A stretch of DNA of 64,000 bases from a virus (taxonomy: Duplodnaviria > Caudoviricetes). The DNA lies in IMG/VR virus record IMGVR_UViG_3300023435_000009; one strand, 5' to 3'. The notes beneath the pieces were generated by a model. The model had not been told where the DNA came from. It did not search any database and worked only from the letters and a program-made list of their open reading frames with translations. The translations under genes and the position numbers were made by a program. Numbering within the stretch: the stretch's first letter is position 1; the number at the start of each line of letters is the position of its first letter. Positions 30,271 through 54,671 of the stretch are shown piece by piece.

Positions 30271-30888
30271 ATGGCCCTGACCCCAAACCAGCTCTACCAG
30301 ACCCTGGCCCAGAATAGGGCTTCGGGTGGTTTCCCCTTCGGGGGTGTTCCTTATGATGGTCTCGCACAGGGGATTGCTTCGGGCGTGATCCAGTGGGGCA
30401 TCAACCAACCGACGAACTTGGCGCTCAAAGGGGTGGCTACGGGACAGCCCGGTATGGGTGTGATCGAGGCTGCGAGCAGCAAACTGGTCGTTCCTCCGAC
30501 TGTGGACGTGGTGGTATCTGCCCTATCAGGAGCGGGGATGCAGGGGCCTTTGTCCCTCTCTCTGGCGACGGCGGTGACCATGGGGATCTCGCAAGGATTT
30601 AGCAGTTATGGACAGTATTCCGGTGTCGCTGCTGGGATTAGCGTGGGGCAGGATGTCTCTAAGGTCATCGTGGCGAACGGTCCTGCTCTGGTGGGTATCT
30701 TACAGGGTACCTTAAGGGCCTCGCTTGGTGCTGGAGCGGCACTTTCGATGATGGCTCAAGGTCTTGGGATCGGGATAGCCTCGTTGCTTCTGTTGGGAGT
30801 CGGGACGGCCTCTGTGACGCTGCCTGCGACTCCCCCCGTTGTGGCGGGAGTTCCTGTCCCTGGCACTACGAACTCGGTGGTGGTGTAA
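30271..30888 (+). CDS. small Gly/Ala-rich baseplate- or spike-associated protein
   Basis: ATG 30271 follows AAGGGA; TAATG coupling to the next gene; function inferred from position only. Confidence 0.5.
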   Translation: MALTPNQLYQTLAQNRASGGFPFGGVPYDGLAQGIASGVIQWGINQPTNLALKGVATGQPGMGVIEAASSKLVVPPTVDVVVSALSGAGMQGPLSLSLATAVTMGISQGFSSYGQYSGVAAGISVGQDVSKVIVANGPALVGILQGTLRASLGAGAALSMMAQGLGIGIASLLLLGVGTASVTLPATPPVVAGVPVPGTTNSVVV

Positions 30889-33800
30889 TGGGTTTCAGTT
30901 TCGACGGTCATGTATTGCGGGGGGCACGGATCGCTCCCAGTAACGCTGTTACCTCAGGGGAGCCCGTCACGGGGGTCATCCGTGATCCACGCTCTGTCCC
31001 CACGGCATACACATTAAAGGTCGGGTCACCCCTGGGTGAGCCTCCGACCTTTGTGGACGCAGCGGCTGATAAGTACAGGGCCGGAATCCTAGATGCACCG
31101 GGCACAACTCCGGTTGAGTATCTGGTATGGGCGCAGAACACGGCATCCCTGTCATGGGTGGATGACCCATCTTGGTGGCTGGAAACGGGAACAGCGACAT
31201 ACCCCACGGGTACCCTGAGCGTGACCGACGTCGTAGCGGGTGAGACTTGGACGGATGGGGCAGCCCACCTTGTGGTTACGGACGAGGGGAACAGGAGCCT
31301 CAGTCGCATCCTGGCGGTTGTTGTCGCTCGGGGCGATCAGGACTACGACGATGACGGTTGGATCGATCCTGACGATGTGAACCCAGCCAACCATCCGGGG
31401 GGCCAGCCCCGTAAGGGCAACGCCCCCTACGTCACCCTCTATTTCGAGGCCGACGAGCAGAGTCCGACCCTTGGGATGGCCTATCTCACGGACGTACAGC
31501 AGACCGCTCTCGCCGGGGGCCTGTCCCTTCGCAGAGGGGACTACGTGGTGGCCGTCCACTACACACTGGCGTCGTCCCGCTTCTGGTGGACGAGGAACGA
31601 CCGCTACGAGACCCGGTTCGGGTGGGACGGACAGGCTCGGCGTTGGGCACCATACAAGGGCACGGCAGTCAAGAATCTGGGTGCAATGGTGCTAGACCTG
31701 GATTACACGATGAGCCCTAAGGTCAACAACCTGCCCGTGGGGACCTTCCTACCGGGTTCTTCGGCAGCCCCTGACCAGTACTCGATGATCCGGGTGGGGT
31801 CCGTACCGGGGGCCACAGGGACGCCTGTGGGGTCTGTCCGTGTGGTGGCAGACAGTGACTTCGAGGACTATGACTTCGCAGCAAACCCTTGCAATGCTGT
31901 AATGGGTCAGACGGGTGGGAAGCTCGCTTTTAACCCGGAATTTGCGACGGCCCATGCTGGTGAGACCATCTGGTACTCCTACAAGGGCTACAGCCCAACC
32001 TCGGACGGAATCGTGGGTCCGATGCGGCTTGCAGATGCCACACCCCTGTACTTGGCCCCGATCCCTGGTCCGACTGATCACCCCTTCATCCATTTTGGGA
32101 GTCGGAATCCTCTGACCCCTATTTTGGTCACCACTGATGCGGCTCTGGCATCAATCAACACAGTGGACCCCGGTACGGTTGCCGTGTCTCTTTCGACCGG
32201 GAAGTTGCGTTTTGCCCCCGAAGACGTACAGCGGGCTGATCCCTCAACCCCCCTGTTTGACAAGTACTTCCTGGGAGAGGACGTCATTTACAAGGGGGTG
32301 GCTCTTAACAGCCAGCCCCAGCCTACTCGTGCTCCTGTGGCACTCGTGGATGAAGCGGGCGCTGTGGCTACGGCACAGGATGACCCGTTGTACATCCCGG
32401 ACGCAGTAGAACTGCCCACCGAGTTTGCGCTGGACGACCCCCGAAGAGGACTCGGGGTTTCGGGCATCCTCGACGCCCCGGACGGTACAGGGGGTCTTCC
32501 CTCCCAGCCCGGTGTTGCAGCCACGGTACGTCCGGGGGGCGACACCATCGGGGCACAGAACTTGGGTCGGATCCGTCAGGTAGACGACGGGGTTGGAGAA
32601 TCCATCTTGTTCTCCCGTGAAGGGGCCATCATCACGTTGGAGGAGGTGACTCTGGAGGCTGACCTCCCGACCATGGGCTTCAAGGTCAAGGCCAGCAAAG
32701 CCTATGTAGCAAGGGAACGGGGTGTAGAGGGATCTCTGGTGGTGCTGGGCCGAAGTGATCGGAAGAGCTTCGGGGATAACGCTGTCTACTTCCTTCAGTC
32801 GTCACTGACTCCAGCGACCTTCACTACGGACGCTGTGGTCTACTCCAGGGGACGGGACATCTTCAGGTTCACTGGTGATGAGGTGTTCTACTATGCCGTG
32901 GACGGTACGGCATACCTGTGGACACCCACTCTGCTGTTGGCAGCCTACCCTAACAACAGTTATTTCACACCCGAGATGGTCGCCGCATCCCTTCAGTCTG
33001 ACACTCTTCCGTTGCCTCCCGCCGGGACGGCCACCGCTGTGAGCGGTCGTGTTGCAATCCGAGGAGCGACCTCGGTGGAGATCGGTTTCGGGACGGACGG
33101 GGAAAAGGATCTTTCCGGTTGCACTGCCTTGGGCCTTATGCCTGGGTGGCGTGCCGTGAACGGGGTCCAGAACTGGCTTCCTGACTCAGGGGTCACTTTG
33201 GGACTCCCTCGCAGCCCCTCCAACATGGACCGCAGCAGTGCCACCCCGGACTACGCCGCAGTCGACCGGGTCGAGAACATCATCCTGTCCGAGAGTGTTC
33301 CTCCCAGCCCCTTCACGTTCCTGGACAATGTGCCATTGCAGGACATCGCTGGGTATGACGACGGGGTCTTCTTCACCCTCCAGTACCTTGCCCTTAATGG
33401 GGACGAGATCGAGGTGGTCAACAAGCCCCTCCTGCACTACGAGGACATCATTCACAGGTTTGGGCAGCGGAAGTTTGACTGGGTGGAGGACAGCATCGCC
33501 TTGGGTGTCGTGGACAAAACGACCACGACCCTGAACTTGGGTGTTCCCAGCCTGGTGCCGGAGACCCTGCTGGGGATCCCTGAAATTGCCGCAGGGCTGC
33601 TGGTGGCCCCTGATGGTGGTGTTTACATCTTTCAGGATCCTGACACGGACTTCGTTCTGCCCCAGGACGGGGTGTCCGGGAACGTGATCCTGGTCGAGCG
33701 GTTTGGTTCCTTGGTGACCTATGGGTCCAAGGGTGCCCGCCTGACCGACCCCACTCACTTTGAGGATCAGTCCGCTGACTTCACCCAGGCCAAGGTTGGC

Positions 33801-36800
33801 TACCGCCTGAAGATCACCTCCGGGGATAACACCGGCTCCTATCTTGTGGAGGAGATCCTTTCGTCTACACAAGTGCGATTGGCACCTGCGATCCCAGAGG
33901 AGTCCCAGATTTGGATGACGTGGGAGCTTTTCACGGGACACACCTCGGATGTGTATGACCCGGCGCTTGTCGCTGACATGGTCTACAAGGACTTCCAGCT
34001 TCTCCCTGAGGAGCCTTTCATCATCAGGATACTGCATCTGGCCGGGCTTGTGCCTGCAACCCCAGCGGAGCAGGAGGCCAACCGACTTCAGGTGGACATG
34101 GGCGAAGCGGTGGAACTTGATCGTCCTATCAGCCTCCGGTTCGGTTTGGAGGCAGTCAACCTTACGAATGAGGCGACACTGACGGCCCTCAGGAAAGTCC
34201 CCATGGGGACGATGGCCAACAACCTGCTGACGCTCCCCGATGTGAACAGTTCCCGTTTCTCCACGGAGGCGTTCTCCGTTCAGGTGGGGAGGGCAACTTT
34301 TAGCCACGGGGCCGGTGATCTGGTGGGGGTTGCGTCCTTCAGTTCGGATCCGTCAGGAATTGAGTACCTGACCGCTGACATTGTTGTTGGCGGTGTGACG
34401 ACACCGAAGGGGCGTCTCAAGTTTGGCACCACTGTGTTGACTTCACTGACGGGGGCCAAGGTCTACTACCAGGAGGAGTTCCTGGGTGCAGCCCTGCTCG
34501 TCAGTGGAGAGGCGGAGTTTGACCCCTCAGACGGTTGGTTCAACTTGTCCTCCGCTGACCTGACGGTACACGCTGGGAAGAGGCTCTATTTTGTGGAGCA
34601 GTTGGAGACCGAAGGGCACAGGGATGTTTCCATCAATCCAATGCTGGGTGCCTTCTCCCCCAACGTGCCCCTCCCGAGGGGGGCGGTGGTGGAGGTTCTT
34701 TACTGGCGGGCGGACCTTGAGGGGCGGCGGATCGGTGACCAAGTGGTCGAGTTCCTTCCCGTTTTCGTGCGGAAAGAACAGGCGCAGTTGGTTGCCCCCA
34801 ACATCTACAAGTTCAACCATGCTCTTGAAGACACCGTGTTCCAAGACATCGAACCTTCCGTGTGGATCGGTGCGATGATGCAGAACTTCGGGCAGGTCGA
34901 CTGTGTTGTCGATTACCCCGAGGATTGGAACGGAGCCGGGCGTGTCACGTTCGTGAGTAAAACAGTGGACGCCACGGACCCCGTGACCGTGACCTTTGCC
35001 GTGTACGAAGCCCAGGGCGGGGAGCGTTCTTACGAGGCCAGTCAGAAAAACATCTATCGTCCACCCTTTTTCATCAAGGCGAACCAGAGCCGGTTTGGGC
35101 TCAGGACGGATAGGACAGCAGAGTTCGAACCGGGCCAGATGATTCGGATTGGTGAGGACTGCTTCTACATCCGCTCCCTGAAGTACTTTCCGCTCGAAAC
35201 CGATGGCAGCGGGGATGTGACCGAGGTCAACATCTTCCCCTCTACCATAAACGAGGTGGGCAGCAGGGCTCCTGGTAACGATCTGCTGAACTACATTACG
35301 GACAAGCCCCTCACGACGGTGGTGGACCCCGATGGGCCGACTCCTGTGCCCACAACGGCAGCCGCTGGGTTTATGTCAGCTATTGATCTGACACAGTTTC
35401 CTTTTGAGTCTGTGGTGCGAGGCCAGAAGGTTGTCATCTTCAGAGGTGACCTTACGGAGTTCGCTGTGCCGGGCCATGTTATCGAGATCGGGGGCGCACC
35501 CTACACCATCGGTAGTTCCGAGATCACGGAGGATGGGACACGCACGAAGATCACGGTGACGGGGAGCTTCCATCGGGCCTTCGACATACTGGCAGCCCCC
35601 ATCGTCAAAATCTCCTACCGTCCGGTGTACCCTCCGAACTTCATGGAGTTCGTGGGCGTGGGTCCGGTTCTGGACTCTGAGACGGTGGAACTTGTCCTGT
35701 TCGGGGAGACCCTGAGCAACGGTGAGGAGGCACCGGGGCGGACCCTGGTGCCTGACGTGGAGTACCATCTGGACTACACGTCAGGGGCTGTGCAGCTTCT
35801 GTGGCCTCCGCAAGCTGGTCTGCAGCCCAACCAGTGGCTCCTTCTGACCTTCACCAAGCTGCGGACCCTCCAACCCTATCTCAAGGATGAGGTGCTGGTG
35901 GAGCCTCGGTTCCAGGCGTCGTTCTTGTCCGTCACGACACCCAGCGAAGCGAATGACAGACTGGGTGCAACCCTCGCTGCGACGTTCACCTTTTCCAGCC
36001 CGGACTCATTCTACTTCCGAGCCGTGGAGTTGACCCAATTCCTCAGCGAGGCAGCCCAGGAGGCTATCCGGGACATCAACGCCACGTCTCCCGCTGGGGG
36101 TTCCATTCAGATCTCCGCCGGAGGGACCGACAACTGGCAGCAGGGGCGTTTTGGGTTGATGGGGGAGAAGGCACACCTCTCGGACCTGGATCGGGCAGCC
36201 AGGACGTTCCTGGGCTTCTACAATGACACTGTCGTGGCCTTCGAACAGATCCAGGAGACCATCTCGGGAGGTTTCGTCGGGGATCGGGATGGGAAGTTCC
36301 GGTTCTGGGTGGGCTACGGGAAGGACTACCCCACGCCTGGGTACGAGGACGCCATCTCAGGTGGTCTCCTGTCAAGGTTTGTGTGGGCGGACGCAGTAAA
36401 TTCTGAACGGGTGCTGGGCGCTCCAGCATTCCTGACCCTGGACGATTGGGTGGTGGCTCCTGACTCCGTCACGTTGGAGGATGCTGAGATCAGTGGTTCT
36501 TTCCTGGGTCCAAACACGCTGAATATAATGCAGACCATCCAGGGTGCATTGGTTCAGAATGATGTGGACGACGTCGTTCTCCTCAAGCTCGGAAAGACGC
36601 ACATTACAGGGACGGGGGCGGATCCCTATTACCACTTCAAGGCCAAGGGTGTCTTCGGGCGCATGTCCGATCAGCATCAGTTCTCCCGCATCTTCCCCAC
36701 CCGGACCAAGGCATTCTTCCGTCTGTACCCCGGCGCAGGGGCACAGATGGAGCCGGGAGCCTTCAACCCTGGCGTCTACACGGCAGGACGGGACATCAAC

Positions 36801-39800
36801 GGGGAATGGCTGAAGACCACGGGTGAGCAGATTGGCCAGATCAGTAATCCCGTGCTGGGGGACATCCAGGGTGTAGATTCCATCGATCTGGTCGAGAGAC
36901 GGGCGAGGGGTCGCATCTGGGGGTACTTTCCGGATGGGCTACCTGGTGGTCTTTTCGACGGGGGTGCTTCTCCTCCGGTCCCTGTTGCCTGCATCATCGT
37001 GACGCCGCTCCTTTTAAGGGACGTGCCCGTGGATCCTGAGACGGGCTACCCTGATGACACACGATTCCTCTCCACAGTGCCTCCTGGGGATCTGGGCGAC
37101 GCCGTTGCTGGTGACCCAGAACTGGCCGTGCCCGGTTTCGAGGCAGGAGATCAGTTGGGCTGGGGGAAGCCGGACGGAACAGAACTCGGTGCCTTCTGTC
37201 CCACAACTGTCCTGATGTGGGGTGCCACGGAACCCACGGGCCTCTTCGTCAGAGAAGTCCTATACGGGTGCGTGATTACCTTCCAGGACTACTTGGCCGC
37301 CCCGATGGCGCTCCCTGAGGAAGTCCTTGTGGTGGACACACCCGCCCACGAGTACCCCTTGGAGCGGGGCGACACACTGATGGTGGTTTCGCCCTCAGGG
37401 GTGGCGATGCAGGCTCCTCAGGTGCCAGACCTGACCACGGCTCCCACCTTCCAGACGTTCGCTGACAGTACGGTGCTGGCCGGACTGTATCGGGATGGCT
37501 ATGACTTGGGGACCAAGTCAGACGGACAAGTCATCGACAAGTCCCTCCCCTCCCTTCAGGACCACGCCTACATCCCGTTGAAGGAGTTGGCGGGACAGAA
37601 TGTGCCTGAGCCCACCTCCTCGGTGGAGGGTATTCTGGAGTTCCTTTACATGAACCAGAACCCACTCAAAGTTCCGGCTTTGCTTGGGGGTTGGGTGGAC
37701 GACTCGGGGGACTTCTCGGTCCCATACATCCGCACGGGCAACACAGAGATCGATCGCTTCGAGGACATCTCCGTTGTGGTGTCCGAGGCGATCTCAGCCA
37801 GGTCCGACACGGTGCCAACCGAGGCGGTGTACCCGGACGAAATCCTGAGCCTGAACGGCGTGGTGAACGTCGTTGGGGACACTCCTGCGTCCCTAGATGT
37901 GGATGCGGACCTGTTCCCCGTGGTGCCTGGTCCCATCGTTCCTGGGATCGGGAATGCCCGACCCTACGACCTGATCTTGGTTCAGGAACCAGCCTTGTTT
38001 GAAGACTCTGACTTCACCACGTTAGCAGGGTACACGTTGGGGCCGCACGGCATCCTGTCCATAGGACGAGCGGAGACCATCCCCGGTGGGACGGCGGTTG
38101 AACCCCCGAGGTTCGTCACCCACACGGCAGCCCCGCCCGCCGGACTCAGCCCCGTGACGGGAGATGCCGTCAGATACAATCTGACCAATGCAATGGTGTT
38201 CGTGGATGGTATCTATCCGCCGGATCCCCAGGTGGGGGTACCGCCAGCGGGTGTTGCGGTCTTTGAGGACACACTGGCTGGGATCACGGTGTTGGACTTC
38301 ACCTCTGTTCCCATGGCCCTGAACGATGGGATCACCCGAGGGGTGGGGAACCTGAACGACGTTTACTTTGCGGGCAACCCGATTACCATCAGGATGATTG
38401 CCCGCCCAGACCCGAACGTAGTTGCGGGGCCGGTTGGACCGAACCCACTGCCCTCGTTGACGGGCGGTGTGGAGGCTCTCCGAATTACTCTCTGGCAGGG
38501 TATGGCCTTCGTGTGGACCTATCAGGACGACTTCAACCTGGCACCTCCTATCGGTGTGGCGCTGGGTGGTCCTCCCATCTTTGGGGACAATGTCGTTCCG
38601 GTGCTCCCCGTTTCAGACAACCGCCAGATCATCATTCCTGGCCTCGGCATCATCCCCTGGGGTGCTGTCCCACCGAACACATGGTTCCTGCCTCACACGC
38701 TGACACCGGGGCCGCTGTATACGATGATCTACGGGTTCGAGTACAGCTTTGACATCGACGCCAGAGGGTTCTTGCACTGGGCACCCGCAGCGCCGATCTG
38801 GGGATCCCTGACAGCCTGGGTGGATGAGGACCGCCTCACCTTCCACGAGACCTGCGACCTGCGTTACGCATCAGAGCGGGGTTTTGTGCATCCTCTTAAT
38901 CCCGCTTTGGACCTTGAGACCCAACTCACCGTGGACGAGGTCCGGCTTGGGCGGGATGCAGCCACTTGGTACTGGTCCGACGTTAACGCCAGGGCCAACG
39001 GTTGGACAGGTGCCCCGATTCCCTTCACGTTCTTGATGCGAGTTCCACCCTACGTGGGTGAATGGCAGATGGCGGCTGGTACCGTCAGCGAGCGGGGGTC
39101 TATCCGGGTGATGGCTTTTGAGGGGCATGACAACGTCCCCATTGAAGGGGTGACTGTTGCTTCGGCCACTGTGCCTTCCTGTGACTACCCACCCAACCAG
39201 ACCGCTGAGATCTGCTCCGGCGTAGGGGTCACATCCAGCAGGCTCAACACCTGGCTCACCCCGGCGGAGGTCGAAAGTTCAGACTGTCGCCTCACGGCCA
39301 TCACCCCAAGCTCAGGTTCCGTAGGGGCCGTTGAGAAGGGTGACGTGCTCGTCATCAATGGTTCCAGTAATCTGACATATCCGGGCACCCTGTACGCTGG
39401 GACGTACCTTGTCCGGCATGCAGTGGAGACCTTGGGTGGTTCCTACCGAGCGGTGGCTCCTACGTCCACCACGGGGGTAGGGACGGGTTGGTGCCCAGTG
39501 GTCTATCCCACGGTGTTGGGGTACGACAATGTCACCAATGAACTGACGGTCTCCGATTTGGCCCCCGCAGCGGGAGGACCCCTTGTGGGTGGTGTCAATG
39601 TCGGGTTCCCTCTCCCTGCGGCAGGCACCCGAGTCTTTGTGTTGATTAGTCCTGCAGGGTTGGCTTCATTCGATGAGTTGACTTTCCGTGGGTCTGTGAT
39701 CAGTGCCGAGTACTCTGGGATGGCGATGGTGGCTGGACGGGGCGTCTTCACGGTAGCCAACTGGCAGGATGCAATGGGGACGGTGATCACGGAGGCTGAG

Positions 39801-42302
39801 TTCGAGCTTTCCGCCACCGTAGGAACGAAGATCTCGGGGATGCAGTTCCTTCCCGTACAGGTTTCCGGGGCCGAGTACGGTTTGCCCCATGACAACTGCG
39901 TGGGCGTTGATGATGCAGCCCTTTCCATCTATGGGTTCCGGCGGCTGACCTTCAGGCCGCCCACGTCGTTGACTCATTTCCCTGCCGCCCCGGATAACGC
40001 TCAACCTGTGGTGTTCAACTCTGCGGGGGCACCCGGCGTGACGGACGGGGCCTTGGACAGGGTTGCGGGGTTCAACACCTTGATCCCCATGGTCTCTGCC
40101 CCGGAACCGGGGCATGAGTTCCTGCCCAGTCCAGCGACTCCGGTCTACCACTGGGTCGCACACACGTTGGACGTGCAGGCGTTTAACAGCCTGCTTCAGC
40201 TTTGGGACACCCTGAATGTGGCTGGTGGCTCCTACGGCGGCATCCATGGTGCGACGGGAGTCCGGTGCATCCTCCCTGGGACCGAGATGGCTATGACCAG
40301 TGAAAATGTCGGGGTGATGCTCCCAGGCTTCCGTGCCCAGGCAGGGATCTTCCTGGAGCCCTCCGTGCCTCGTGCCGGGTTGGATCTGGTTCCGGCAGTC
40401 AGTCACGTTCGGGTTGTTGACCAGGACCACAGTCTTCCTGACCCCACTCTTGCGGCAACGGATGATGTGCGAGAGATCTGGATGAGGAACGCTCATGACT
40501 ACTACCTGGGAGGTGGTGCTTCTACGCAACCGAACATCCCGGAAGAGGTCACCTTCATTGTGAGACGCATCCGTCGTTTTCACAACGTCGGGGGTTCTCC
40601 TACGAACCTGATGCCCCTGCGATATGCCTACGAGATCCGCCGAGGAATGATCACTGATTACACTGTGATGCCCAGCCAGATGTGCATCGTGCAGGCCAAC
40701 TCTTTCACAATGAACTGGGAATCGATCAAGCCCGCAGGGTCACCCAAAGCGAACGACGCTTGGAATGACGGTGCCACCTACCTGGGAACCAACCTGGGGC
40801 CGTTCAACAACGAGGACGTGAACGCCCACGCCGGGGACACCTTCCGGCTCCTGGATCGTTTCGGGGACGTAGTGGAGGAAGCCGAGATCAGTTCCGTGAG
40901 GGAAGGACATGAGTTGGTTCTTGTTCCTCCAGGGTTGCAACTCTATGACCCCTCTAACGGGACCGTGCGGTTCGAGATTTTCCTCCGGCACGCTCCGGTG
41001 CCCCATGAGCAGACCAACGAGCAACTCCTGGATGTCATTACTTCTCGGGCTGTCACACGCACGGACGCTACCTGGGGTGTGGCCTCAGAGTTGGGTGGTT
41101 ACGTCCCAGAGGTCACAGGTGGGGCCACCTATGCTGGTAATGTCAACAAGCTCTACGACGACCTGAACGCCCCAGGAACCGGGGGCCAGACCTTCGGGGC
41201 GTTGGGGGTACAGAAGGGTGATATCGTTGTGGTGGATCCCATCGGGTTGATTCCTCAGAACTTAGCGGGCGATCCCACAACGCAAGAGTTGGCGATGCGT
41301 CCGGTGGGGGACGATTCTGTAGACGTCAGGATCGGTGCCGGAGTGTATGTGCCTGGACGCCCGAACCCTCTGGATGACAACAGGGGCTTCTACAGGGTTC
41401 TCCAGGTGGTCGATTCGGTGACACCCCCCTACTTGCTGGTGAATCCGGTTACGGAATTCACGGGGACAGATGTCGCTCCCGTTGTGTTCGATCCTACGGA
41501 TGACACCCGAGCGTATGCGGTGTACCCCTCGATCCACGACTCTTCTTTGGCTGCGACTGGCGAGGAGGGGCAGATGGATCTTCGTCCGACGAGGGCGAGG
41601 AATCCTGCGAATGGTTCCTTCAAGAACTACCCCAGCGGACTCAGCAACCACTCGGTAAGGCCCTTCTCTTATCAGGTGATTCGTCCGACGCAGTTCTTCA
41701 CGGACGCCACCATTGACTTGGTCCTGTCCACTCGGGAACGGATGCTCTCCCTCATCGCTTTGATCAATCAAATTGGGCACACCAAGGGTGGCAGTTATTT
41801 CATCTTCCAACGGGACACCCACCTGTACGATGTGGGCAGCCCGACCGACCCGGAGTTGGGCCTCGGTGTGGCCTCTAACGACTACCTCATGTCCGTGGTG
41901 GGCCGGGTGGATGTGATGCCCTATGCCAATAACACGACCTGCTTGTCCCTTCTGGACAGGAGGTTCTGGATCCTGGACGAGAAGCTGGACTTCCTGACGT
42001 ATGATGCAGCCAGCGGGACGGGGATGAGAAGGGCGGGTCCAGGGGACACCCCATACACTGAGTACTCTACAGTGACGGGGAGCATGGTCCGCCCTGTGCT
42101 GCCAGACTTGGTAGACGATGTGCTGGATCAGTCTGAGAGGCTCCGGGACGTGCGGTACGTCTGGTTGGCCTACCGGACTCATCAGGTTCTGGGCACGCTT
42201 GCCTCACTGAGCCGCTTTGACGCTGAGTTACCCAAACGTCTTCAGGAACAGGAGCAGTATCTGCTCCTGAAGGAATCGATGGAGAAGGTCTCTGAAACTT
42301 GA
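30888..42302 (+). CDS. giant (3804 aa) virion structural protein, probably baseplate/fibre-anchoring
   Basis: Uninterrupted 11.4-kb ORF with phage-type GC3 bias, beta-rich composition, located in the baseplate module. Confidence 0.7.
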   Translation: MGFSFDGHVLRGARIAPSNAVTSGEPVTGVIRDPRSVPTAYTLKVGSPLGEPPTFVDAAADKYRAGILDAPGTTPVEYLVWAQNTASLSWVDDPSWWLETGTATYPTGTLSVTDVVAGETWTDGAAHLVVTDEGNRSLSRILAVVVARGDQDYDDDGWIDPDDVNPANHPGGQPRKGNAPYVTLYFEADEQSPTLGMAYLTDVQQTALAGGLSLRRGDYVVAVHYTLASSRFWWTRNDRYETRFGWDGQARRWAPYKGTAVKNLGAMVLDLDYTMSPKVNNLPVGTFLPGSSAAPDQYSMIRVGSVPGATGTPVGSVRVVADSDFEDYDFAANPCNAVMGQTGGKLAFNPEFATAHAGETIWYSYKGYSPTSDGIVGPMRLADATPLYLAPIPGPTDHPFIHFGSRNPLTPILVTTDAALASINTVDPGTVAVSLSTGKLRFAPEDVQRADPSTPLFDKYFLGEDVIYKGVALNSQPQPTRAPVALVDEAGAVATAQDDPLYIPDAVELPTEFALDDPRRGLGVSGILDAPDGTGGLPSQPGVAATVRPGGDTIGAQNLGRIRQVDDGVGESILFSREGAIITLEEVTLEADLPTMGFKVKASKAYVARERGVEGSLVVLGRSDRKSFGDNAVYFLQSSLTPATFTTDAVVYSRGRDIFRFTGDEVFYYAVDGTAYLWTPTLLLAAYPNNSYFTPEMVAASLQSDTLPLPPAGTATAVSGRVAIRGATSVEIGFGTDGEKDLSGCTALGLMPGWRAVNGVQNWLPDSGVTLGLPRSPSNMDRSSATPDYAAVDRVENIILSESVPPSPFTFLDNVPLQDIAGYDDGVFFTLQYLALNGDEIEVVNKPLLHYEDIIHRFGQRKFDWVEDSIALGVVDKTTTTLNLGVPSLVPETLLGIPEIAAGLLVAPDGGVYIFQDPDTDFVLPQDGVSGNVILVERFGSLVTYGSKGARLTDPTHFEDQSADFTQAKVGYRLKITSGDNTGSYLVEEILSSTQVRLAPAIPEESQIWMTWELFTGHTSDVYDPALVADMVYKDFQLLPEEPFIIRILHLAGLVPATPAEQEANRLQVDMGEAVELDRPISLRFGLEAVNLTNEATLTALRKVPMGTMANNLLTLPDVNSSRFSTEAFSVQVGRATFSHGAGDLVGVASFSSDPSGIEYLTADIVVGGVTTPKGRLKFGTTVLTSLTGAKVYYQEEFLGAALLVSGEAEFDPSDGWFNLSSADLTVHAGKRLYFVEQLETEGHRDVSINPMLGAFSPNVPLPRGAVVEVLYWRADLEGRRIGDQVVEFLPVFVRKEQAQLVAPNIYKFNHALEDTVFQDIEPSVWIGAMMQNFGQVDCVVDYPEDWNGAGRVTFVSKTVDATDPVTVTFAVYEAQGGERSYEASQKNIYRPPFFIKANQSRFGLRTDRTAEFEPGQMIRIGEDCFYIRSLKYFPLETDGSGDVTEVNIFPSTINEVGSRAPGNDLLNYITDKPLTTVVDPDGPTPVPTTAAAGFMSAIDLTQFPFESVVRGQKVVIFRGDLTEFAVPGHVIEIGGAPYTIGSSEITEDGTRTKITVTGSFHRAFDILAAPIVKISYRPVYPPNFMEFVGVGPVLDSETVELVLFGETLSNGEEAPGRTLVPDVEYHLDYTSGAVQLLWPPQAGLQPNQWLLLTFTKLRTLQPYLKDEVLVEPRFQASFLSVTTPSEANDRLGATLAATFTFSSPDSFYFRAVELTQFLSEAAQEAIRDINATSPAGGSIQISAGGTDNWQQGRFGLMGEKAHLSDLDRAARTFLGFYNDTVVAFEQIQETISGGFVGDRDGKFRFWVGYGKDYPTPGYEDAISGGLLSRFVWADAVNSERVLGAPAFLTLDDWVVAPDSVTLEDAEISGSFLGPNTLNIMQTIQGALVQNDVDDVVLLKLGKTHITGTGADPYYHFKAKGVFGRMSDQHQFSRIFPTRTKAFFRLYPGAGAQMEPGAFNPGVYTAGRDINGEWLKTTGEQIGQISNPVLGDIQGVDSIDLVERRARGRIWGYFPDGLPGGLFDGGASPPVPVACIIVTPLLLRDVPVDPETGYPDDTRFLSTVPPGDLGDAVAGDPELAVPGFEAGDQLGWGKPDGTELGAFCPTTVLMWGATEPTGLFVREVLYGCVITFQDYLAAPMALPEEVLVVDTPAHEYPLERGDTLMVVSPSGVAMQAPQVPDLTTAPTFQTFADSTVLAGLYRDGYDLGTKSDGQVIDKSLPSLQDHAYIPLKELAGQNVPEPTSSVEGILEFLYMNQNPLKVPALLGGWVDDSGDFSVPYIRTGNTEIDRFEDISVVVSEAISARSDTVPTEAVYPDEILSLNGVVNVVGDTPASLDVDADLFPVVPGPIVPGIGNARPYDLILVQEPALFEDSDFTTLAGYTLGPHGILSIGRAETIPGGTAVEPPRFVTHTAAPPAGLSPVTGDAVRYNLTNAMVFVDGIYPPDPQVGVPPAGVAVFEDTLAGITVLDFTSVPMALNDGITRGVGNLNDVYFAGNPITIRMIARPDPNVVAGPVGPNPLPSLTGGVEALRITLWQGMAFVWTYQDDFNLAPPIGVALGGPPIFGDNVVPVLPVSDNRQIIIPGLGIIPWGAVPPNTWFLPHTLTPGPLYTMIYGFEYSFDIDARGFLHWAPAAPIWGSLTAWVDEDRLTFHETCDLRYASERGFVHPLNPALDLETQLTVDEVRLGRDAATWYWSDVNARANGWTGAPIPFTFLMRVPPYVGEWQMAAGTVSERGSIRVMAFEGHDNVPIEGVTVASATVPSCDYPPNQTAEICSGVGVTSSRLNTWLTPAEVESSDCRLTAITPSSGSVGAVEKGDVLVINGSSNLTYPGTLYAGTYLVRHAVETLGGSYRAVAPTSTTGVGTGWCPVVYPTVLGYDNVTNELTVSDLAPAAGGPLVGGVNVGFPLPAAGTRVFVLISPAGLASFDELTFRGSVISAEYSGMAMVAGRGVFTVANWQDAMGTVITEAEFELSATVGTKISGMQFLPVQVSGAEYGLPHDNCVGVDDAALSIYGFRRLTFRPPTSLTHFPAAPDNAQPVVFNSAGAPGVTDGALDRVAGFNTLIPMVSAPEPGHEFLPSPATPVYHWVAHTLDVQAFNSLLQLWDTLNVAGGSYGGIHGATGVRCILPGTEMAMTSENVGVMLPGFRAQAGIFLEPSVPRAGLDLVPAVSHVRVVDQDHSLPDPTLAATDDVREIWMRNAHDYYLGGGASTQPNIPEEVTFIVRRIRRFHNVGGSPTNLMPLRYAYEIRRGMITDYTVMPSQMCIVQANSFTMNWESIKPAGSPKANDAWNDGATYLGTNLGPFNNEDVNAHAGDTFRLLDRFGDVVEEAEISSVREGHELVLVPPGLQLYDPSNGTVRFEIFLRHAPVPHEQTNEQLLDVITSRAVTRTDATWGVASELGGYVPEVTGGATYAGNVNKLYDDLNAPGTGGQTFGALGVQKGDIVVVDPIGLIPQNLAGDPTTQELAMRPVGDDSVDVRIGAGVYVPGRPNPLDDNRGFYRVLQVVDSVTPPYLLVNPVTEFTGTDVAPVVFDPTDDTRAYAVYPSIHDSSLAATGEEGQMDLRPTRARNPANGSFKNYPSGLSNHSVRPFSYQVIRPTQFFTDATIDLVLSTRERMLSLIALINQIGHTKGGSYFIFQRDTHLYDVGSPTDPELGLGVASNDYLMSVVGRVDVMPYANNTTCLSLLDRRFWILDEKLDFLTYDAASGTGMRRAGPGDTPYTEYSTVTGSMVRPVLPDLVDDVLDQSERLRDVRYVWLAYRTHQVLGTLASLSRFDAELPKRLQEQEQYLLLKESMEKVSET

Positions 42303-42327
42303 TAAGTGTTCAACGGTGCTTTAAGAT
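42299..42327 (+). promoter_or_regulatory. sigma70-type promoter in the element left end
   Basis: TTGATA (42299-42304), 17 nt, TAAGAT (42322-42327); GTCAT-gtgc-ATGAC hairpin at 42332-42345. Confidence 0.65.
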
Positions 42328-42368
42328 GTTGGTCATGTGCATGACTATCACGCAGGCAGAGGGGAAAA

Positions 42369-43577
42369 GTGCTTCTAGCTCATGAAATAAGGCTCCGTCC
42401 CTCCCGAACGCAGGAGGAATACTTTCGTCATGCCTGTGGTGTGGCGAGGTTCACGTACAACTGGGCGTTGGAACATTGGAAAAGCGCCTACGAGGCGGGA
42501 GAAAAACCTTCTGGATCTTCTCTCAAGAAACAGTTCAATGCTATCCGTCGTGAGAAGTTTCCCTGGACTTATGAAGTTCACAGGGACTGTACAGCCCAGT
42601 CTTTCACGCAACTCCAAAAGGCGTTCACGCATTTTTTCCATCGTATGAAAGCGGGTCGAAAACCAGGCTACCCCAAGTTTAAAAAACGAGGTGGGTGCAA
42701 GGACTCTTTCTACATAGCTAATGACCGATTCCGATTAGACAACAAACGTATCCACTTACCCAAAATAGGATGGGTCAGGTTGCGTGAAGTCCTACGTTTC
42801 GAGGGTATGATCACCAGTGCTATCGTCAAGCGTGTAGCTGACGCCTGGTTCGTTGTAGTACAGGTCGATGTCGGTGACTATCGACGTGACCGCATTGCCA
42901 ATAGTGAGGTCGGTGTCGATTTGGGTATCAGATCCTCTGCTACACTCTCCACCGGGGAGCATATTCAAGGACCAAAGGCCTTGAAAAAGAACCTGAGGAA
43001 GTTGCAACGGGAGTCCCGTTGGCATTCCCGCAAACAGAAGGGATCAGCAAATCGCCGTAAATCGACAATGAAATTGGCTCGATTGCACCGTCGGATCGGT
43101 TACGTCCGATCCGACTATCTGCACAAACTGAGTACAAGGCTCTGTCGTGAGAACCAAGCGATAGGGATCGAGGATTTGGCTGTACAGAACATGGTTCGTA
43201 ATAGGCGGTTGAGCCGCCACATCGTGGATGAGGGATGGGGGGGGTTTCGACGGCAGATCAATTATAAGGCGGTCATCTTTGATGACGTGGTCGTTGTTCA
43301 TGATCGTTTTTACGCTTCGTCGAAGACCTGTTTTTTGTGTTGTGAAAAGAGGGCTAAGTTAAGCCTATCCGAGCGTACCTTCAAGTGCGCCTGCGGTTGG
43401 GAAATTGACAGAGATGTCAATGCCGCTTTGAACTTACTACCGTGGGTTACACGGGAAGTTACGCTTGTGGAGAAGGAAGCGCTGGTTTTGGCATTAGCTG
43501 AAACGAAACTGCCTTTGATGAAGCAGGAACTAACCCCTACGCCTTTGTGCGTGGGGGAAAGGTATCAGAAGGCCTAG
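42369..43577 (+). CDS. tnpB: RNA-guided endonuclease TnpB
   Basis: N-terminal HTH (AHEIRLRP...ARFTYNWAL), RuvC-I VGVDLG, RuvC-II IGIEDL, Zn finger CxxC...CxCG, RuvC-III DRDVNAALNL; all three catalytic acidic residues present. Confidence 0.95.
   Translation: MLLAHEIRLRPSRTQEEYFRHACGVARFTYNWALEHWKSAYEAGEKPSGSSLKKQFNAIRREKFPWTYEVHRDCTAQSFTQLQKAFTHFFHRMKAGRKPGYPKFKKRGGCKDSFYIANDRFRLDNKRIHLPKIGWVRLREVLRFEGMITSAIVKRVADAWFVVVQVDVGDYRRDRIANSEVGVDLGIRSSATLSTGEHIQGPKALKKNLRKLQRESRWHSRKQKGSANRRKSTMKLARLHRRIGYVRSDYLHKLSTRLCRENQAIGIEDLAVQNMVRNRRLSRHIVDEGWGGFRRQINYKAVIFDDVVVVHDRFYASSKTCFLCCEKRAKLSLSERTFKCACGWEIDRDVNAALNLLPWVTREVTLVEKEALVLALAETKLPLMKQELTPTPLCVGERYQKA
43441..43572 (+). ncRNA. putative omegaRNA scaffold overlapping the tnpB 3' end (5' boundary approximate)
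   Basis: Follows the DVNAALNL codons; hairpins GTTTTGGC-atta-GCTGAAAC (43485-43504) and CCCCTACGC-ctttgt-GCGTGGGGG (43534-43557); 84% identical over 92 nt to the non-coding copy at 54578-54668. Confidence 0.7.
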
Positions 43578-43804
43578 TGGAGATCCCTAAAGAAATTCAG
43601 GACTTGCTGGACAAACTCGGGGTGGACCCTGGGGCCTGGGGTGAGATGGAAGGGCACGCTGCCACTCCTCCCCTGATGCAGCGTCAGGCTGAAACTCTCG
43701 TCAAGCTCCGCACCTTCCTGGAGACTATGGTGGCCCAGGATCAGGCCGCATTGTCGGGGCTGCATGAACAGTTGGCCCGACTGAAACACGGTGGGGGATC
43801 CTGA
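43577..43804 (+). CDS. small hypothetical coiled-coil protein
   Basis: GTG at 43577 overlaps the TAG stop (TAGTG); the listed start at 43547 lies inside the omegaRNA and is unlikely. Confidence 0.6.
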   Translation: MEIPKEIQDLLDKLGVDPGAWGEMEGHAATPPLMQRQAETLVKLRTFLETMVAQDQAALSGLHEQLARLKHGGGS

Positions 43805-47639: not shown

Positions 47640-48791
47640 ATGTCCCAAGATTTCCAACTGGCCTGGCCTTGTCCGCATCTGACTGTAGAGGAGTACATTC
47701 CTCTTGGACCGGATCGGAGATCTTTGGCCACCAAGCAGCCTGTGGCTAACACAGGCACCATCAGGATCCTTGCCAACGACGAGTTCTACATCCCCAACTC
47801 AGGGATGTTTTCACAAGCCGAGTTGATGAGTGCTGTGTCCGGTCCTTATGACATCATCCCCGGTGAGAACAGTTTCACGGTAGAGACCTCGGCGGGTTCC
47901 CAGACGTTCGTTTTTGCTGTTCAGGCAGTGACAAGGTATACGGCGAAACAAGTTGAGGCGTTGTTCCAGAAGGTTAGCACCGGAACCGTCCTCATTGGGA
48001 CAAGCAACAGCCACCTTTCCTTCACGGACACTGCTGCGATTGGGGATGCCTCCTACGTGGCCGTCAGCGGGACCGCTGCAGGCGCTTTGGGGTTCGGGGC
48101 GGCGGGGGTCAACTCCTACCAGCGGCGGGCCATAGGACGGCGTTTGTTTCCCTCCTGGAACATTTACACACCAGGCGGAGCAATCACGGCCAGGTACCCC
48201 CGGTTCACGTCACCTATCACAATGGGTGACCCCGTGTTTAAGGTGACGTATTCGATGCCGGGTAACCGCTGCCTCAGGTGTGGCGCTACCTATGTCGAGA
48301 ACGACATCCGGTTCGCAGCCAGCGGTCAAAGCCTGATGGTGGCTAATGAGGATCTGCTCTATCAAGCGGCCCTCAAGATTCTACTGACGGACAAGGGTTC
48401 TAATCCCTACCATCCCTGGTACGGAACGGACCTTCGTTCTCGGATTGGTTCGAAGACCGTTTCCGGTGTGGCGACCTTGATTAATGAGGACGTGCGGAAA
48501 GCGTTGGCCAAGTATCAGTCCCTCCAGACGGAGCAGGCCAAGTTCCAGCAGGTCACCTACAAGGAACGTCTCTACTCCGTGACCAATGTGACGGTCTCTC
48601 CGCACACGCAGGACCAGACCACCTTCATGATCGACGTGACAGTTCAGAACGCTTCTTCTGACCCAATCCATCTGAACATCGTCTACACGGTGCCTGGAGT
48701 GGTGGCTCTGATGGGATCCAACGGGTTAATGTTAGGGGCAAAGACCGCAGGACTTGAGAACCAGCCCAACCCGTTTTCAGGAGGCAACTGA
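47640..48791 (+). CDS. baseplate wedge/sheath initiator, gp25 (GPW)-like, N-terminally extended
   Basis: C-terminal NEDLLYQAALKILLTDKGSNPYHPWYGTDL...IDVTVQN is the gp25 pattern; precedes the J-like gene. Confidence 0.85.
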   Translation: MSQDFQLAWPCPHLTVEEYIPLGPDRRSLATKQPVANTGTIRILANDEFYIPNSGMFSQAELMSAVSGPYDIIPGENSFTVETSAGSQTFVFAVQAVTRYTAKQVEALFQKVSTGTVLIGTSNSHLSFTDTAAIGDASYVAVSGTAAGALGFGAAGVNSYQRRAIGRRLFPSWNIYTPGGAITARYPRFTSPITMGDPVFKVTYSMPGNRCLRCGATYVENDIRFAASGQSLMVANEDLLYQAALKILLTDKGSNPYHPWYGTDLRSRIGSKTVSGVATLINEDVRKALAKYQSLQTEQAKFQQVTYKERLYSVTNVTVSPHTQDQTTFMIDVTVQNASSDPIHLNIVYTVPGVVALMGSNGLMLGAKTAGLENQPNPFSGGN

Positions 48792-54533: not shown

Positions 54534-54545
54534 GAGGTAGGAGAA

Positions 54546-54668
54546 CGTTTCTAGGGTTCTTGACAGTGTGTAACGGGGCGCTGGTTTCGGCATTAGCTGA
54601 AACGAAACTGTCCTCGTTGGAGTAGGGGCTAATTCCTACGTTTTTGTGCGTGGGGAAAGGTAGCAGAA
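54546..54668 (+). mobile_element. 123-bp non-autonomous miniature derivative of a TnpB/IS607-like element (left end plus 3' omegaRNA/right end)
   Basis: 54541-54579 aligns to the TnpB left end 42282-42319; 54578-54668 aligns to 43479-43570 (77/92 identical); flanked by AGGTAGGAGAA and AGGTAGCAGAA. Confidence 0.85.
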
Positions 54669-54671
54669 GCC

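What the first reader, a model, noticed from the sequence alone, without database searches (positions are those of the whole stretch)
42277..43590. TnpB-only IS607-like element with an exactly reconstructable empty site and candidate TAM
Seen in sequence: AGAAGG direct repeats (42283-42288, 43567-43572) bracket tnpB, its promoter and its omegaRNA. Excision gives ...TCG ATG GAG AAG GCC TAG TGG AG..., so the giant gene would end MEKA* with TAGTG coupling to the 43577 gene. All three RuvC residues are intact and no tnpA is present. Established: IS607 elements recombine via a serine recombinase at short G-rich cores and their TnpB cuts the empty allele. Inference: the TAM is within GGAGAAGG and the guide begins at CCTAGTGGAGATCCCTAAAG, making this a homing, RNA-guided selfish element in a phage baseplate operon.
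Basis: partly seen in the sequence, partly recalled or inferred. Interest (0 to 1): 0.7.

Follow-up and report, generated by a model that had tools for sequence, protein, structure and literature searches.

The report
Transposase-less IS607 TnpB element in phage
A huge salt-lake phage carries, between two virion genes, a 1.3-kb selfish element with an intact RNA-guided nuclease (TnpB) and its guide RNA but no transposase; it is a new member of the known IS607 family, and its guide matches the site as it would look without the insertion.

Summary
AGAAGG sits at 42283-88 and 43567-72 and brackets a 402-aa TnpB gene with intact RuvC residues and a structured 3' guide-RNA scaffold. No transposase gene lies in the 109-kb record.

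The IS607 assignment is supported:
- In a 141-protein tree, the window's TnpB falls in the clade holding every relative linked to a serine recombinase. Relatives linked to a Y1 transposase fall in the other clade.
- The 3' scaffold resembles RAGATH-18 and is backed by compensatory base changes.
- Family-wide junctions follow IS607 logic. The left flank ends in (A/T/G)GGAG and the right end in CAG. The shared AG is the core, and position -3 tells target from self.

A related phage keeps the uninterrupted site.

Two corrections:
- The likely TAM is TGGAG (42280-84).

Homing is inferred, not shown. All 23 contigs and four laid runs carry the insertion, and no empty allele was found.

Earlier notes of this scan list several similar transposase-less elements in this phage.

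Verdict: new member of a known kind, moderate interest.

The parts
30888..42302 (+). 3804-aa phage gene whose 3' end received the insertion. It now ends ...SMEKVSET*, and its last four codons and stop come from the element's left end.
   Evidence: ORF list, sequence. The relative L003 ends ...SMEKV*. No Pfam or PHROG match.
42280..42284 (+). Predicted TAM, TGGAG. Its last two bases (42283-84) are the predicted AG crossover core.
   Evidence: Left flanks end TGGAG or AGGAG in the window, the mini relic, L027, L024, L192 and L195. The autonomous relative L114 and L034 start their shared sequence at AGGGAG. Measured TAMs for this RNA type are AGGAG or GAGGG (PMC11061315).
42285..42368 (+). Left end of the element. 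It supplies an in-frame stop (TGA 42300-02), a promoter-like TTGATA-17-TAAGAT (42299-42327) and a purine-rich stretch before the GTG start.
   Evidence: The tip AAGGTCTCT matches the mini relic's tip AACGTTTCT, and a -35-like hexamer is shared with the mini relic and L027. Promoter scan.
42369..43577 (+). tnpB, 402 aa, with the RuvC triad and zinc finger intact. The ORF runs through the right end and stops on TAG 43575-77, the inferred original stop codon of the giant gene.
   Evidence: The identical protein was found on 23 contigs.
43404..43568 (+). Guide-RNA (omegaRNA/reRNA) scaffold overlapping the 3' end of tnpB. Its RAGATH-18-like core is 43464-43529 and it ends ...GGTATCAG. The 5' limit is approximate.
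   Evidence: Full-length but sub-threshold RF03064 hits in the window, L024, L027 and L030. In a 39-sequence alignment, 16 of 19 predicted pairs show compensatory changes. Fold z = -3.7.
43567..43568 (+). AG core at the right junction. The preceding TC makes ATCAG, which is not a TAM, so the occupied site would be spared.
   Evidence: CAG is the last conserved triplet in the 14 CAG-type elements tabulated and at the shared right boundaries. The only near-match to TAM plus guide in the window is this junction, with 2 mismatches in the TAM.
43569..43588 (+). Predicted guide template, about 16-20 nt of flank beginning AAGGCCTAG.... It includes the old stop codon and the GTG start of the next gene.
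   Evidence: Inferred from where the scaffold ends, by analogy with CboIStron and ISFba1. A strain variant carries C>A at 43574, as expected for ordinary flank.
43577..43804 (+). 75-aa downstream gene. Its GTG start overlaps the TAG.
   Evidence: Its homologue in L003 starts with an ATG that overlaps the giant gene's TGA.
54536..54669 (+). Decayed mini copy of the same element, with left end fused to the 3' scaffold part and no tnpB. It follows AGGAG and ends ...GGTAGCAG just before the ATG of the 1004-aa gene.
   Evidence: The conserved GAAGCAGGAAC motif is mutated and the 5' strand of the RAGATH core is missing.

Best explanation
Window 42285-43568 (1284 bp) is a non-autonomous IS607-family insertion sequence of an AG-core subtype. 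It keeps tnpB and its guide RNA but has no serine-recombinase tnpA.

It inserted immediately 3' of TGGAG, a Shine-Dalgarno-like motif, at the junction between a 3804-aa virion gene and a 75-aa gene. The insertion does little damage. The left end ends the giant gene after four extra codons. The AG core plus the flank keeps a purine-rich ribosome site and the GTG start for the next gene.

Inferred mechanism:
- tnpB is transcribed from the operon or from its own weak promoter.
- The 3' part of the mRNA folds into the scaffold ending ...CAG, and the following 16-20 nt of flank (AAGGCCTAG...) become the guide.
- The TnpB-RNA complex can then cut only DNA in which TGGAG directly abuts that flank. 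That is the uninterrupted allele of a co-infecting relative, or a joint left after excision.
- Repair from the occupied copy would re-install the element (homing).
- The occupied allele escapes because ATCAG replaces TGGAG.

Shown here: the element's identity, its family, its ends, its RNA structure and the architecture of the empty site. Inferred: the exact TAM, the guide start, cleavage and homing.
For: - TnpB domains and catalytic residues are intact.
- Tree of 141 TnpBs: the window pairs with L024 (SH-aLRT 96). Both sit in an 11-member clade that is all transposase-less, and all but one member (L113, unclear) have a CAG end. That clade lies inside a 117-member clade (support 98) holding all 42 tree members with a serine-recombinase motif next to tnpB.
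- Eleven of those adjacent ORFs were run through Pfam, and all match Resolvase.
- The four TnpBs next to a Pfam-confirmed Y1_Tnp gene (L146, L155, L167, L188) all sit in the other, 24-member clade (support 98).
- RAGATH-18-like hits cover the full model at the 3' end of tnpB in the window and three relatives. RAGATH-18 RNAs are reported only with IS607 TnpBs (PMC11061315).
- In the 39-sequence scaffold alignment, 16 of 19 predicted pairs show compensatory changes.
- Junction logic: left flanks end (A/T)GGAG and right ends end CAG in six independent insertions. The autonomous element L114 (with TnpA_S) and L034 share sequence from AGGGAG to ...GGAACAG.
- GG-core relatives show NGGG and ...AACGG, the pattern of CboIStron's TGGG and UCGG.
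- The natural uninterrupted site in L003 ends ...ATG GAG AAG GTA TGA with an overlapping ATG. L004 is also uninterrupted.
- The mini relic shows that the tip AAsGTyTCT belongs to the element and that GGAG belongs to the target.
Against: - No empty allele and no excision joint were seen in 23 contigs, 24 contigs for the neighbouring gene, four laid runs, or two junction-pattern scans. Current homing or excision is therefore undocumented.
- No tnpA lies in the 109 kb available, and the element may simply be stranded.
- Rfam scores (24-29 bits) are below the RAGATH-18 gathering score of 44.9.
- By sequence, the protein is slightly nearer to ISDra2 TnpB (IS605, 198 bits) than to PDB 8IAZ (171 bits). 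I take 8IAZ to be ISFba1 because the residue numbering matches with an offset of 3; its record is titled only 'Transposase'.
- Of the TAM-contact residues reported for ISFba1, N61, Y117 and N121 are kept, but K80, K83 and N122 are not (alignment).
- GGAG is also what a ribosome-binding site looks like, so some of its recurrence at gene junctions could reflect context rather than TAM.
Confidence: 0.75

Rival explanations
1. Stranded passenger. The element is a genuine IS607-type insertion, but it is now immobile and has no function in the phage. It persists only because precise deletion is rare, and TnpB and its RNA never meet a cleavable target.
For: No transposase in the record. The insertion is fixed in every contig and run examined. 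A second copy of the same element has already decayed to a 134-bp relic.
Against: The ORF, the catalytic triad, the zinc finger and the scaffold are all intact. The closest relatives are also intact transposase-less copies in other phage-like contigs, which suggests selection for the nuclease itself.
Confidence: 0.17
2. The TAM includes the whole GAGAAGG, the scaffold ends ...CAGAAGG, and the guide starts at CCTAGTGG (43573).
For: The exact repeat is 6 nt long. Junction identity beyond AG recurs in other elements.
Against: In relatives, the bases after CAG differ from element to element (AAGCC, TAGTG, AACCC, CGAAG, GTGAG, GACCA), and the bases after GGAG differ as well. The mini relic shows that AAsGT after GGAG is element sequence. 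Measured TAMs of this RNA type are 5-mers ending in AG or GG that abut the target directly.
Confidence: 0.05
3. It is an IS200/IS605-type element, mobilised as single-stranded DNA by a Y1 TnpA.
For: The best-scoring natural solved structure by sequence is ISDra2 TnpB. The guide RNA overlaps the ORF, as in IS605 elements.
Against: All Y1-linked relatives fall in the other clade of the tree. The junction motif is G-rich and shares a dinucleotide with the right end. The scaffold is RAGATH-18-like.
Confidence: 0.02
4. The nuclease has been repurposed. The phage uses TnpB and its RNA against another target, such as the host or a competing phage, or as a regulator, rather than for the element's own upkeep.
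For: Phage-borne TnpB relatives with regulatory roles exist (TldR papers listed). Earlier notes of this scan report many OMEGA nucleases in this phage.
Against: The RuvC triad is intact, so it is not a dead repressor. The guide position holds the element's own flank. No second match to TAM plus guide exists in the window.
Confidence: 0.01

Closest known systems
IS607-family TnpB with RAGATH-18-derived reRNA (ISFba1 type; Ren et al. 2024, PMC11061315; PDB 8IAZ, taken to be ISFba1 from matching residue numbering)
   Same: A roughly 390-400-aa TnpB with the RuvC triad and a zinc finger. A RAGATH-18-like core in the guide scaffold. A G-rich 5-nt TAM ending in AG (AGGAG measured there, TGGAG predicted here). 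Relatives are linked to a MerR-HTH serine recombinase.
   Different: Here the scaffold overlaps the last ~57 codons of tnpB, whereas that paper describes the reRNA as separate from the coding sequence. The Rfam score is below threshold. Several TAM-contact residues differ. There is no tnpA. The host is a huge phage.
CboIStron / IS607 of Clostridium botulinum (Zedaveinyte et al., bioRxiv 10.1101/2023.11.20.567912)
   Same: The same junction logic. The TAM and the end of the scaffold share the crossover dinucleotide and differ at position -3 (TGGG vs UCGG there, GGAG vs nCAG here). The empty joint is scarless and equals TAM plus guide target. GG-core relatives of this TnpB show the identical NGGG and ACGG pattern.
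   Different: The core is AG rather than GG. No group I intron and no TnpA_S are present. Excision and homing were measured there and are only inferred here.
ISDra2 TnpB (IS200/IS605; PDB 8BF8, 8EXA)
   Same: The closest natural solved structure by sequence (E 2.5e-57). The guide RNA overlaps the 3' end of the ORF. The proposed role is the same: cleavage of the empty site.
   Different: ISDra2 has a Y1 transposase, a TTGAT TAM and hairpin ends. Y1-linked TnpBs form a separate clade from the window's.
Free-standing homing endonuclease genes of T-even phages (intronless homing; review PMC13565253)
   Same: A nuclease gene placed between two conserved phage genes in the same orientation. It would cut the allele that lacks it in a co-infecting relative and be copied in during repair.
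   Different: Target recognition is by RNA guide plus TAM, not by protein. The target is set automatically by the flank. Nothing has been measured for this element.

Membership tests
IS607 family (TnpB-bearing) | TnpB with a RuvC D-E-D triad and a CxxC...CxC zinc finger | tested here: met
   Pfam domains. D184, E268 and D349 align to ISDra2 D191, E278 and D361. C321, C324, C340 and C342 are invariant.
IS607 family (TnpB-bearing) | A serine-recombinase TnpA (MerR HTH plus Resolvase domain) encoded in the element | tested here: not met
   No Resolvase hit in the 109-kb record and no ORF between the junctions other than tnpB. The element is therefore a non-autonomous derivative. The other ~80% of the phage genome was not searched.
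IS607 family (TnpB-bearing) | TnpB groups phylogenetically with TnpBs linked to a serine TnpA, not with those linked to a Y1 TnpA | tested here: met
   Tree of 141 proteins. The 117-member clade (support 98) holds the window and all 42 members with an adjacent serine-recombinase motif, 11 of them confirmed by Pfam. The four Y1_Tnp-linked proteins lie in the other clade. This was a quick LG+G4 search rooted at the midpoint.
IS607 family (TnpB-bearing) | No terminal inverted repeats, and a crossover dinucleotide shared by the target or TAM and the right end | tested here: met
   AG at 42283-84 and at 43567-68. The same holds in relatives. GG-core relatives show NGGG and ACGG. No terminal inverted repeats were found. 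The core here is AG, not the usual GG.
IS607 family (TnpB-bearing) | RAGATH-18-type guide RNA scaffold (Rfam RF03064) | tested here: inconclusive
   Matches cover the full model but score 24-29 bits against a gathering score of 44.9. Homology is backed by the conserved CCUGUGGAG...GAAGCAGGAA motifs and by covariation.
IS607 family (TnpB-bearing) | RNA-guided cleavage of DNA with the TAM next to the guide-matching target | not testable with these tools
   This needs a TAM-library or interference assay.
IS200/IS605 family | Y1 (HUH) TnpA in the element or in close relatives, an AT-rich TAM and subterminal hairpins | tested here: not met
   No Y1_Tnp in the record. A motif screen of 167 loci found Y1 genes only next to the distant clade. 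The junction motif is GGAG.

The most novel reading that the evidence does not exclude
Transposase-free TnpB and guide-RNA cassettes may act in huge-phage populations as free-standing homing nucleases that retarget themselves, in effect gene drives. They would use Shine-Dalgarno-like TAMs so that they land harmlessly at gene junctions. The junction identity that extends beyond the 2-nt core (4, 2, 1, 3, 0, 7, 0 and 0 extra bases in eight insertions; p about 0.002 without the most extreme case, 0.02 under a composition-biased match rate) may betray an insertion route or a target-choice rule not yet described for IS607.
Probability: 0.25. Interest if true: 0.6.

Novelty: new member of a known kind. 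Interest (0 to 1): 0.35.

Why it matters
This is a clean natural example of the TnpB donor-joint logic in a virus. The TAM, core, scaffold end, guide and uninterrupted site can all be read from sequence, and they give an exact substrate for a cleavage assay. It shows that an AG-core branch of IS607, with a TAM that looks like a ribosome-binding site, has spread as transposase-less copies into tightly packed phage operons. That fits the idea that the nuclease alone can maintain or spread such elements by homing. The compact 402-aa nuclease with a predicted NGGAG TAM is also one more candidate for the editing toolbox. None of this changes current understanding of the family.

Tried and rejected
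- Search for an empty allele. Exact-protein look-ups of TnpB and of the 75-aa neighbour returned only occupied contexts. A two-flank pattern and a junction pattern found nothing in viral contigs. Laying contigs of four runs gave no joints. These were contigs, not reads, so rare variants could be missed.
- The search for related loci with TnpB in viral contigs found nothing.
- No RNA holder was listed among the sequencing runs, so expression could not be examined.
- Relatives of the 1004-aa gene downstream of the mini relic were not found in viral contigs, so that relic's empty site was not checked.
- PHROG and Pfam gave nothing for the giant gene or its immediate neighbours.
- The repeat finder showed no terminal inverted repeats or obvious repeated TnpA-binding motifs in the ends.
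- I considered that GGAG before tnpB in L030, L194 and L201 marked their left junctions. I rejected this because a small ribbon-helix-helix gene overlaps the tnpB start there, so their left ends lie further upstream.
- I considered an empty site of GAG AAG GTC TAG (MEKV*), with the boundary after GGTC. I rejected it because the mini relic shows that AAsGTyTCT is element sequence.
- Structure prediction and complex prediction were not used, because they would not change the verdict.


Full report
**What is there**

The window is part of a 109-kb IMG/VR record. The same sequence occurs in a 521,674-bp contig and in many salt-lake metagenomes. AGAAGG occurs at 42283-88 and at 43567-72. The 3804-aa ORF 30888-42302 ends ...SMEKVSET*. 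An 84-nt leader follows, then ORF 42369-43577 (402 aa, GTG start), and then a 75-aa ORF whose GTG (43577) overlaps the TAG that ends the 402-aa ORF.

The 402-aa protein has the three TnpB domains. D184, E268 and D349 align with the catalytic D191, E278 and D361 of ISDra2 TnpB. They are invariant among 32 homologues, as are four zinc-finger cysteines. The only sigma-70-like site is TTGATA-17-TAAGAT at 42299-42327. It is no more than chance would give, although a similar -35 hexamer sits at the same place in the mini copy and in L027.

**Is it an insertion, and what did the site look like?**

A related phage fragment, L003, is 67% identical in the downstream 964-aa protein and has no insertion. 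Its giant gene ends ...TCA ATG GAG AAG GTA TGA (SMEKV*), and the small gene's ATG overlaps the stop. A more distant relative, L004, is also uninterrupted, with an ATGA overlap.

It differs by one residue (A for V), which is unremarkable at this divergence. The interval 42285-43568 is 1284 bp, exactly 428 codons. As a result, tnpB is in the giant gene's frame and ends ...QKA* on what was the giant gene's own K-A-stop.

**Which family?**

Three lines of evidence converge on IS607.

*Neighbours and phylogeny.* About half of 80 bacterial relatives (40-62% identity) carry a co-directional ~210-aa ORF immediately upstream of tnpB, with the motif Y[AC]RVSSxxQ. Eleven such ORFs from bacterial and metagenome relatives were run through Pfam, and all match Resolvase, most of them with a MerR-type HTH as well. 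In a tree of 141 TnpBs:
- The window pairs with L024 (support 96).
- Both sit in an 11-member clade of transposase-less copies. All but one have CAG ends; L113 is unclear, and L027's 'CGG' label in the tree is a regex artefact.
- That clade lies inside a 117-member clade (support 98) containing every serine-TnpA-linked protein.
- The four proteins next to a Pfam-confirmed Y1_Tnp gene all lie in the other 24-member clade.

The tree is a quick LG+G4 search rooted at the midpoint.

*The RNA.* Rfam finds RAGATH-18 across its full length at the 3' end of tnpB in the window (43464-43529) and in L024, L027 and L030. The scores are 24-29 bits against a gathering score of 44.9. Ren et al. (PMC11061315) report that RAGATH-18 RNAs occur only with IS607 TnpBs and form their guide scaffold. 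A 39-sequence alignment from ~60 nt upstream of the motif to the right end gives 19 consensus pairs, 16 with compensatory changes. One example is the stem closing the terminal hairpin, with UA:14, CG:12 and GC:11. The window's copy folds with z = -3.7. Unlike ISFba1, the scaffold here lies inside the last ~57 codons of tnpB.

*The junctions.* In the phage-type relatives, conservation on the right stops at CAG:
- window ...GGTATCAG
- mini copy, L027, L195 and L030 ...TAGCAG
- L024 ...AAACAG
- L192 ...GTCAG

The following bases differ from element to element. On the left, the flank ends TGGAG (window, L027, L024, L192) or AGGAG (mini copy, L195). An autonomous element with TnpA_S (L114) and its relative L034, at unrelated sites, share sequence from AGGGAG to ...GGAACAG. 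Relatives of the GG type begin at (N)GGG and end ...AACGG. That is the TGGG and UCGG pattern measured for the C. botulinum IS607 IStron. There, the shared GG is the serine-recombinase core and position -3 distinguishes target from self.

By the same logic, the window's TAM is TGGAG (42280-84) and the core is AG. The scaffold ends at 43568 and the guide begins at 43569. This agrees with the measured AGGAG and GAGGG TAMs of RAGATH-18-type TnpBs. The only near-match to TAM plus guide in the window is the right junction itself, where TCAG replaces GGAG.

**Points against, or left open**

- By sequence, the protein is slightly closer to ISDra2 TnpB (198 bits) than to 8IAZ (171 bits). I take 8IAZ to be ISFba1, because its residue numbering matches the paper's with an offset of 3.
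- In that alignment N61, Y117 and N121 of ISFba1 are conserved, but K80, K83 and N122 are not. The TAM therefore cannot be read from contact residues.
- GGAG is also a ribosome-binding motif. Because these elements sit at gene junctions, part of its recurrence could reflect context.

**Is it active?**

Every contig carrying this TnpB (23) or its 75-aa neighbour (24) has the same occupied context. Contigs of four further runs cross both junctions without a joint. Two pattern scans for the empty junction found nothing. No tnpA or Y1 gene lies in the 109 kb, and only one tnpB does. Excision and homing are therefore inferred from the family's known behaviour, not observed. The intact ORF and RNA, and the fact that all seven closest relatives examined are intact, co-directional, transposase-less copies in phage-like gene rows, argue that the nuclease itself is maintained.

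**Other copies in the phage**

- A 134-bp relic at 54536-54669 joins a left end (~70% identical) to the last ~95 nt of the scaffold (84% identical). It follows AGGAG and ends ...GGTAGCAG just before the ATG of the 1004-aa gene. Its conserved GAAGCAGGAAC motif is mutated and the 5' strand of the RAGATH core is gone, so it looks dead.
- A profile search of the record found a third, GG-type orphan scaffold with its own left end at G000:103773-104140, outside the window.
- Earlier notes of this scan describe both, and list further transposase-less TnpB and IscB elements elsewhere in this phage. I re-derived the first two independently. The others I did not check.

**An unexplained detail**

Only the AG core should be shared by the two junctions. 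Yet identity continues for 4 (window), 2 (mini), 1 (L027), 3 (L195), 0 (L024), 7 (L192), 0 (L114) and 0 (L034) further bases. Simulation gives p = 3e-6 for the sum. Without L192 it gives 0.0016, or 0.02 with a composition-biased match probability. Comparison of the mini relic with L003 shows that, in the window, this identity is between the element's left tip and the target, not a duplication. It may reflect a target preference of the recombinase for sites resembling the joined ends. I could not test that.

**Verdict**

The element is a new, non-autonomous, phage-borne member of a known family. The AG-core, NGGAG-TAM branch is already implicit in published TAM data. Homing remains a well-founded inference.

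Noticed in passing
window 54536-54669: A decayed mini derivative of the same element, with the left end fused to the 3' part of the scaffold. It sits between AGGAG and the ATG of the 1004-aa gene. Removing it would restore AGGAG-AAGCC-ATG, a textbook ribosome site.
   Followed up: partly
G000:C1:103773-104140 (outside the window, same strand as window +): A third IS607-type remnant, of the GG-core kind. Its left end starts at TAGGG|TTGCTAACAG, right after a 66-aa ORF's stop codon, and its guide-RNA-like right end finishes ...GGAGAACGG. It has no tnpB.
   Followed up: partly
L030:2867-3004, L194:2373-2504, L201:1539-1751: In one subclade of the phage-borne relatives, a 43-70-aa ribbon-helix-helix gene (Pfam RHH_1 in L194) overlaps the tnpB start, where tnpA would normally be. 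A 2026 preprint, listed but not read, describes Arc-type RHH repressors in IS605 elements.
   Followed up: partly
junctions of window, mini relic, L027, L195, L024, L192, L114, L034: Identity between the left-end tip and the right flank extends beyond the AG core more often than chance predicts. No explanation has been established.
   Followed up: partly
window 42285-43577: The insertion is exactly 428 codons long. tnpB therefore shares the giant gene's reading frame and terminates on that gene's inferred original K-A-TAG.
   Followed up: yes
window 43574: A strain in a marine metagenome run (X18) carries C>A at predicted guide position 6, plus a few flank SNPs, while the element's right end is unchanged. 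The reconstructed C-terminus stays MEKA*.
   Followed up: no
window 43464-43476 vs 42279-42288 and 43574-43583: The scaffold's own 5' motif reads CTTGTGGAGAAGG. It therefore contains TGGAG+AAGG, which is the TAM plus the first four guide bases, and it resembles the flank CTAGTGGAGA. This is probably coincidence with the conserved CCUGUGGAG motif.
   Followed up: no
window 47640-48791: This is the only neighbour with any annotation: weak PHROG matches to baseplate and baseplate-wedge proteins (E 1e-6 to 3e-4). The 'baseplate operon' label rests on this alone.
   Followed up: no
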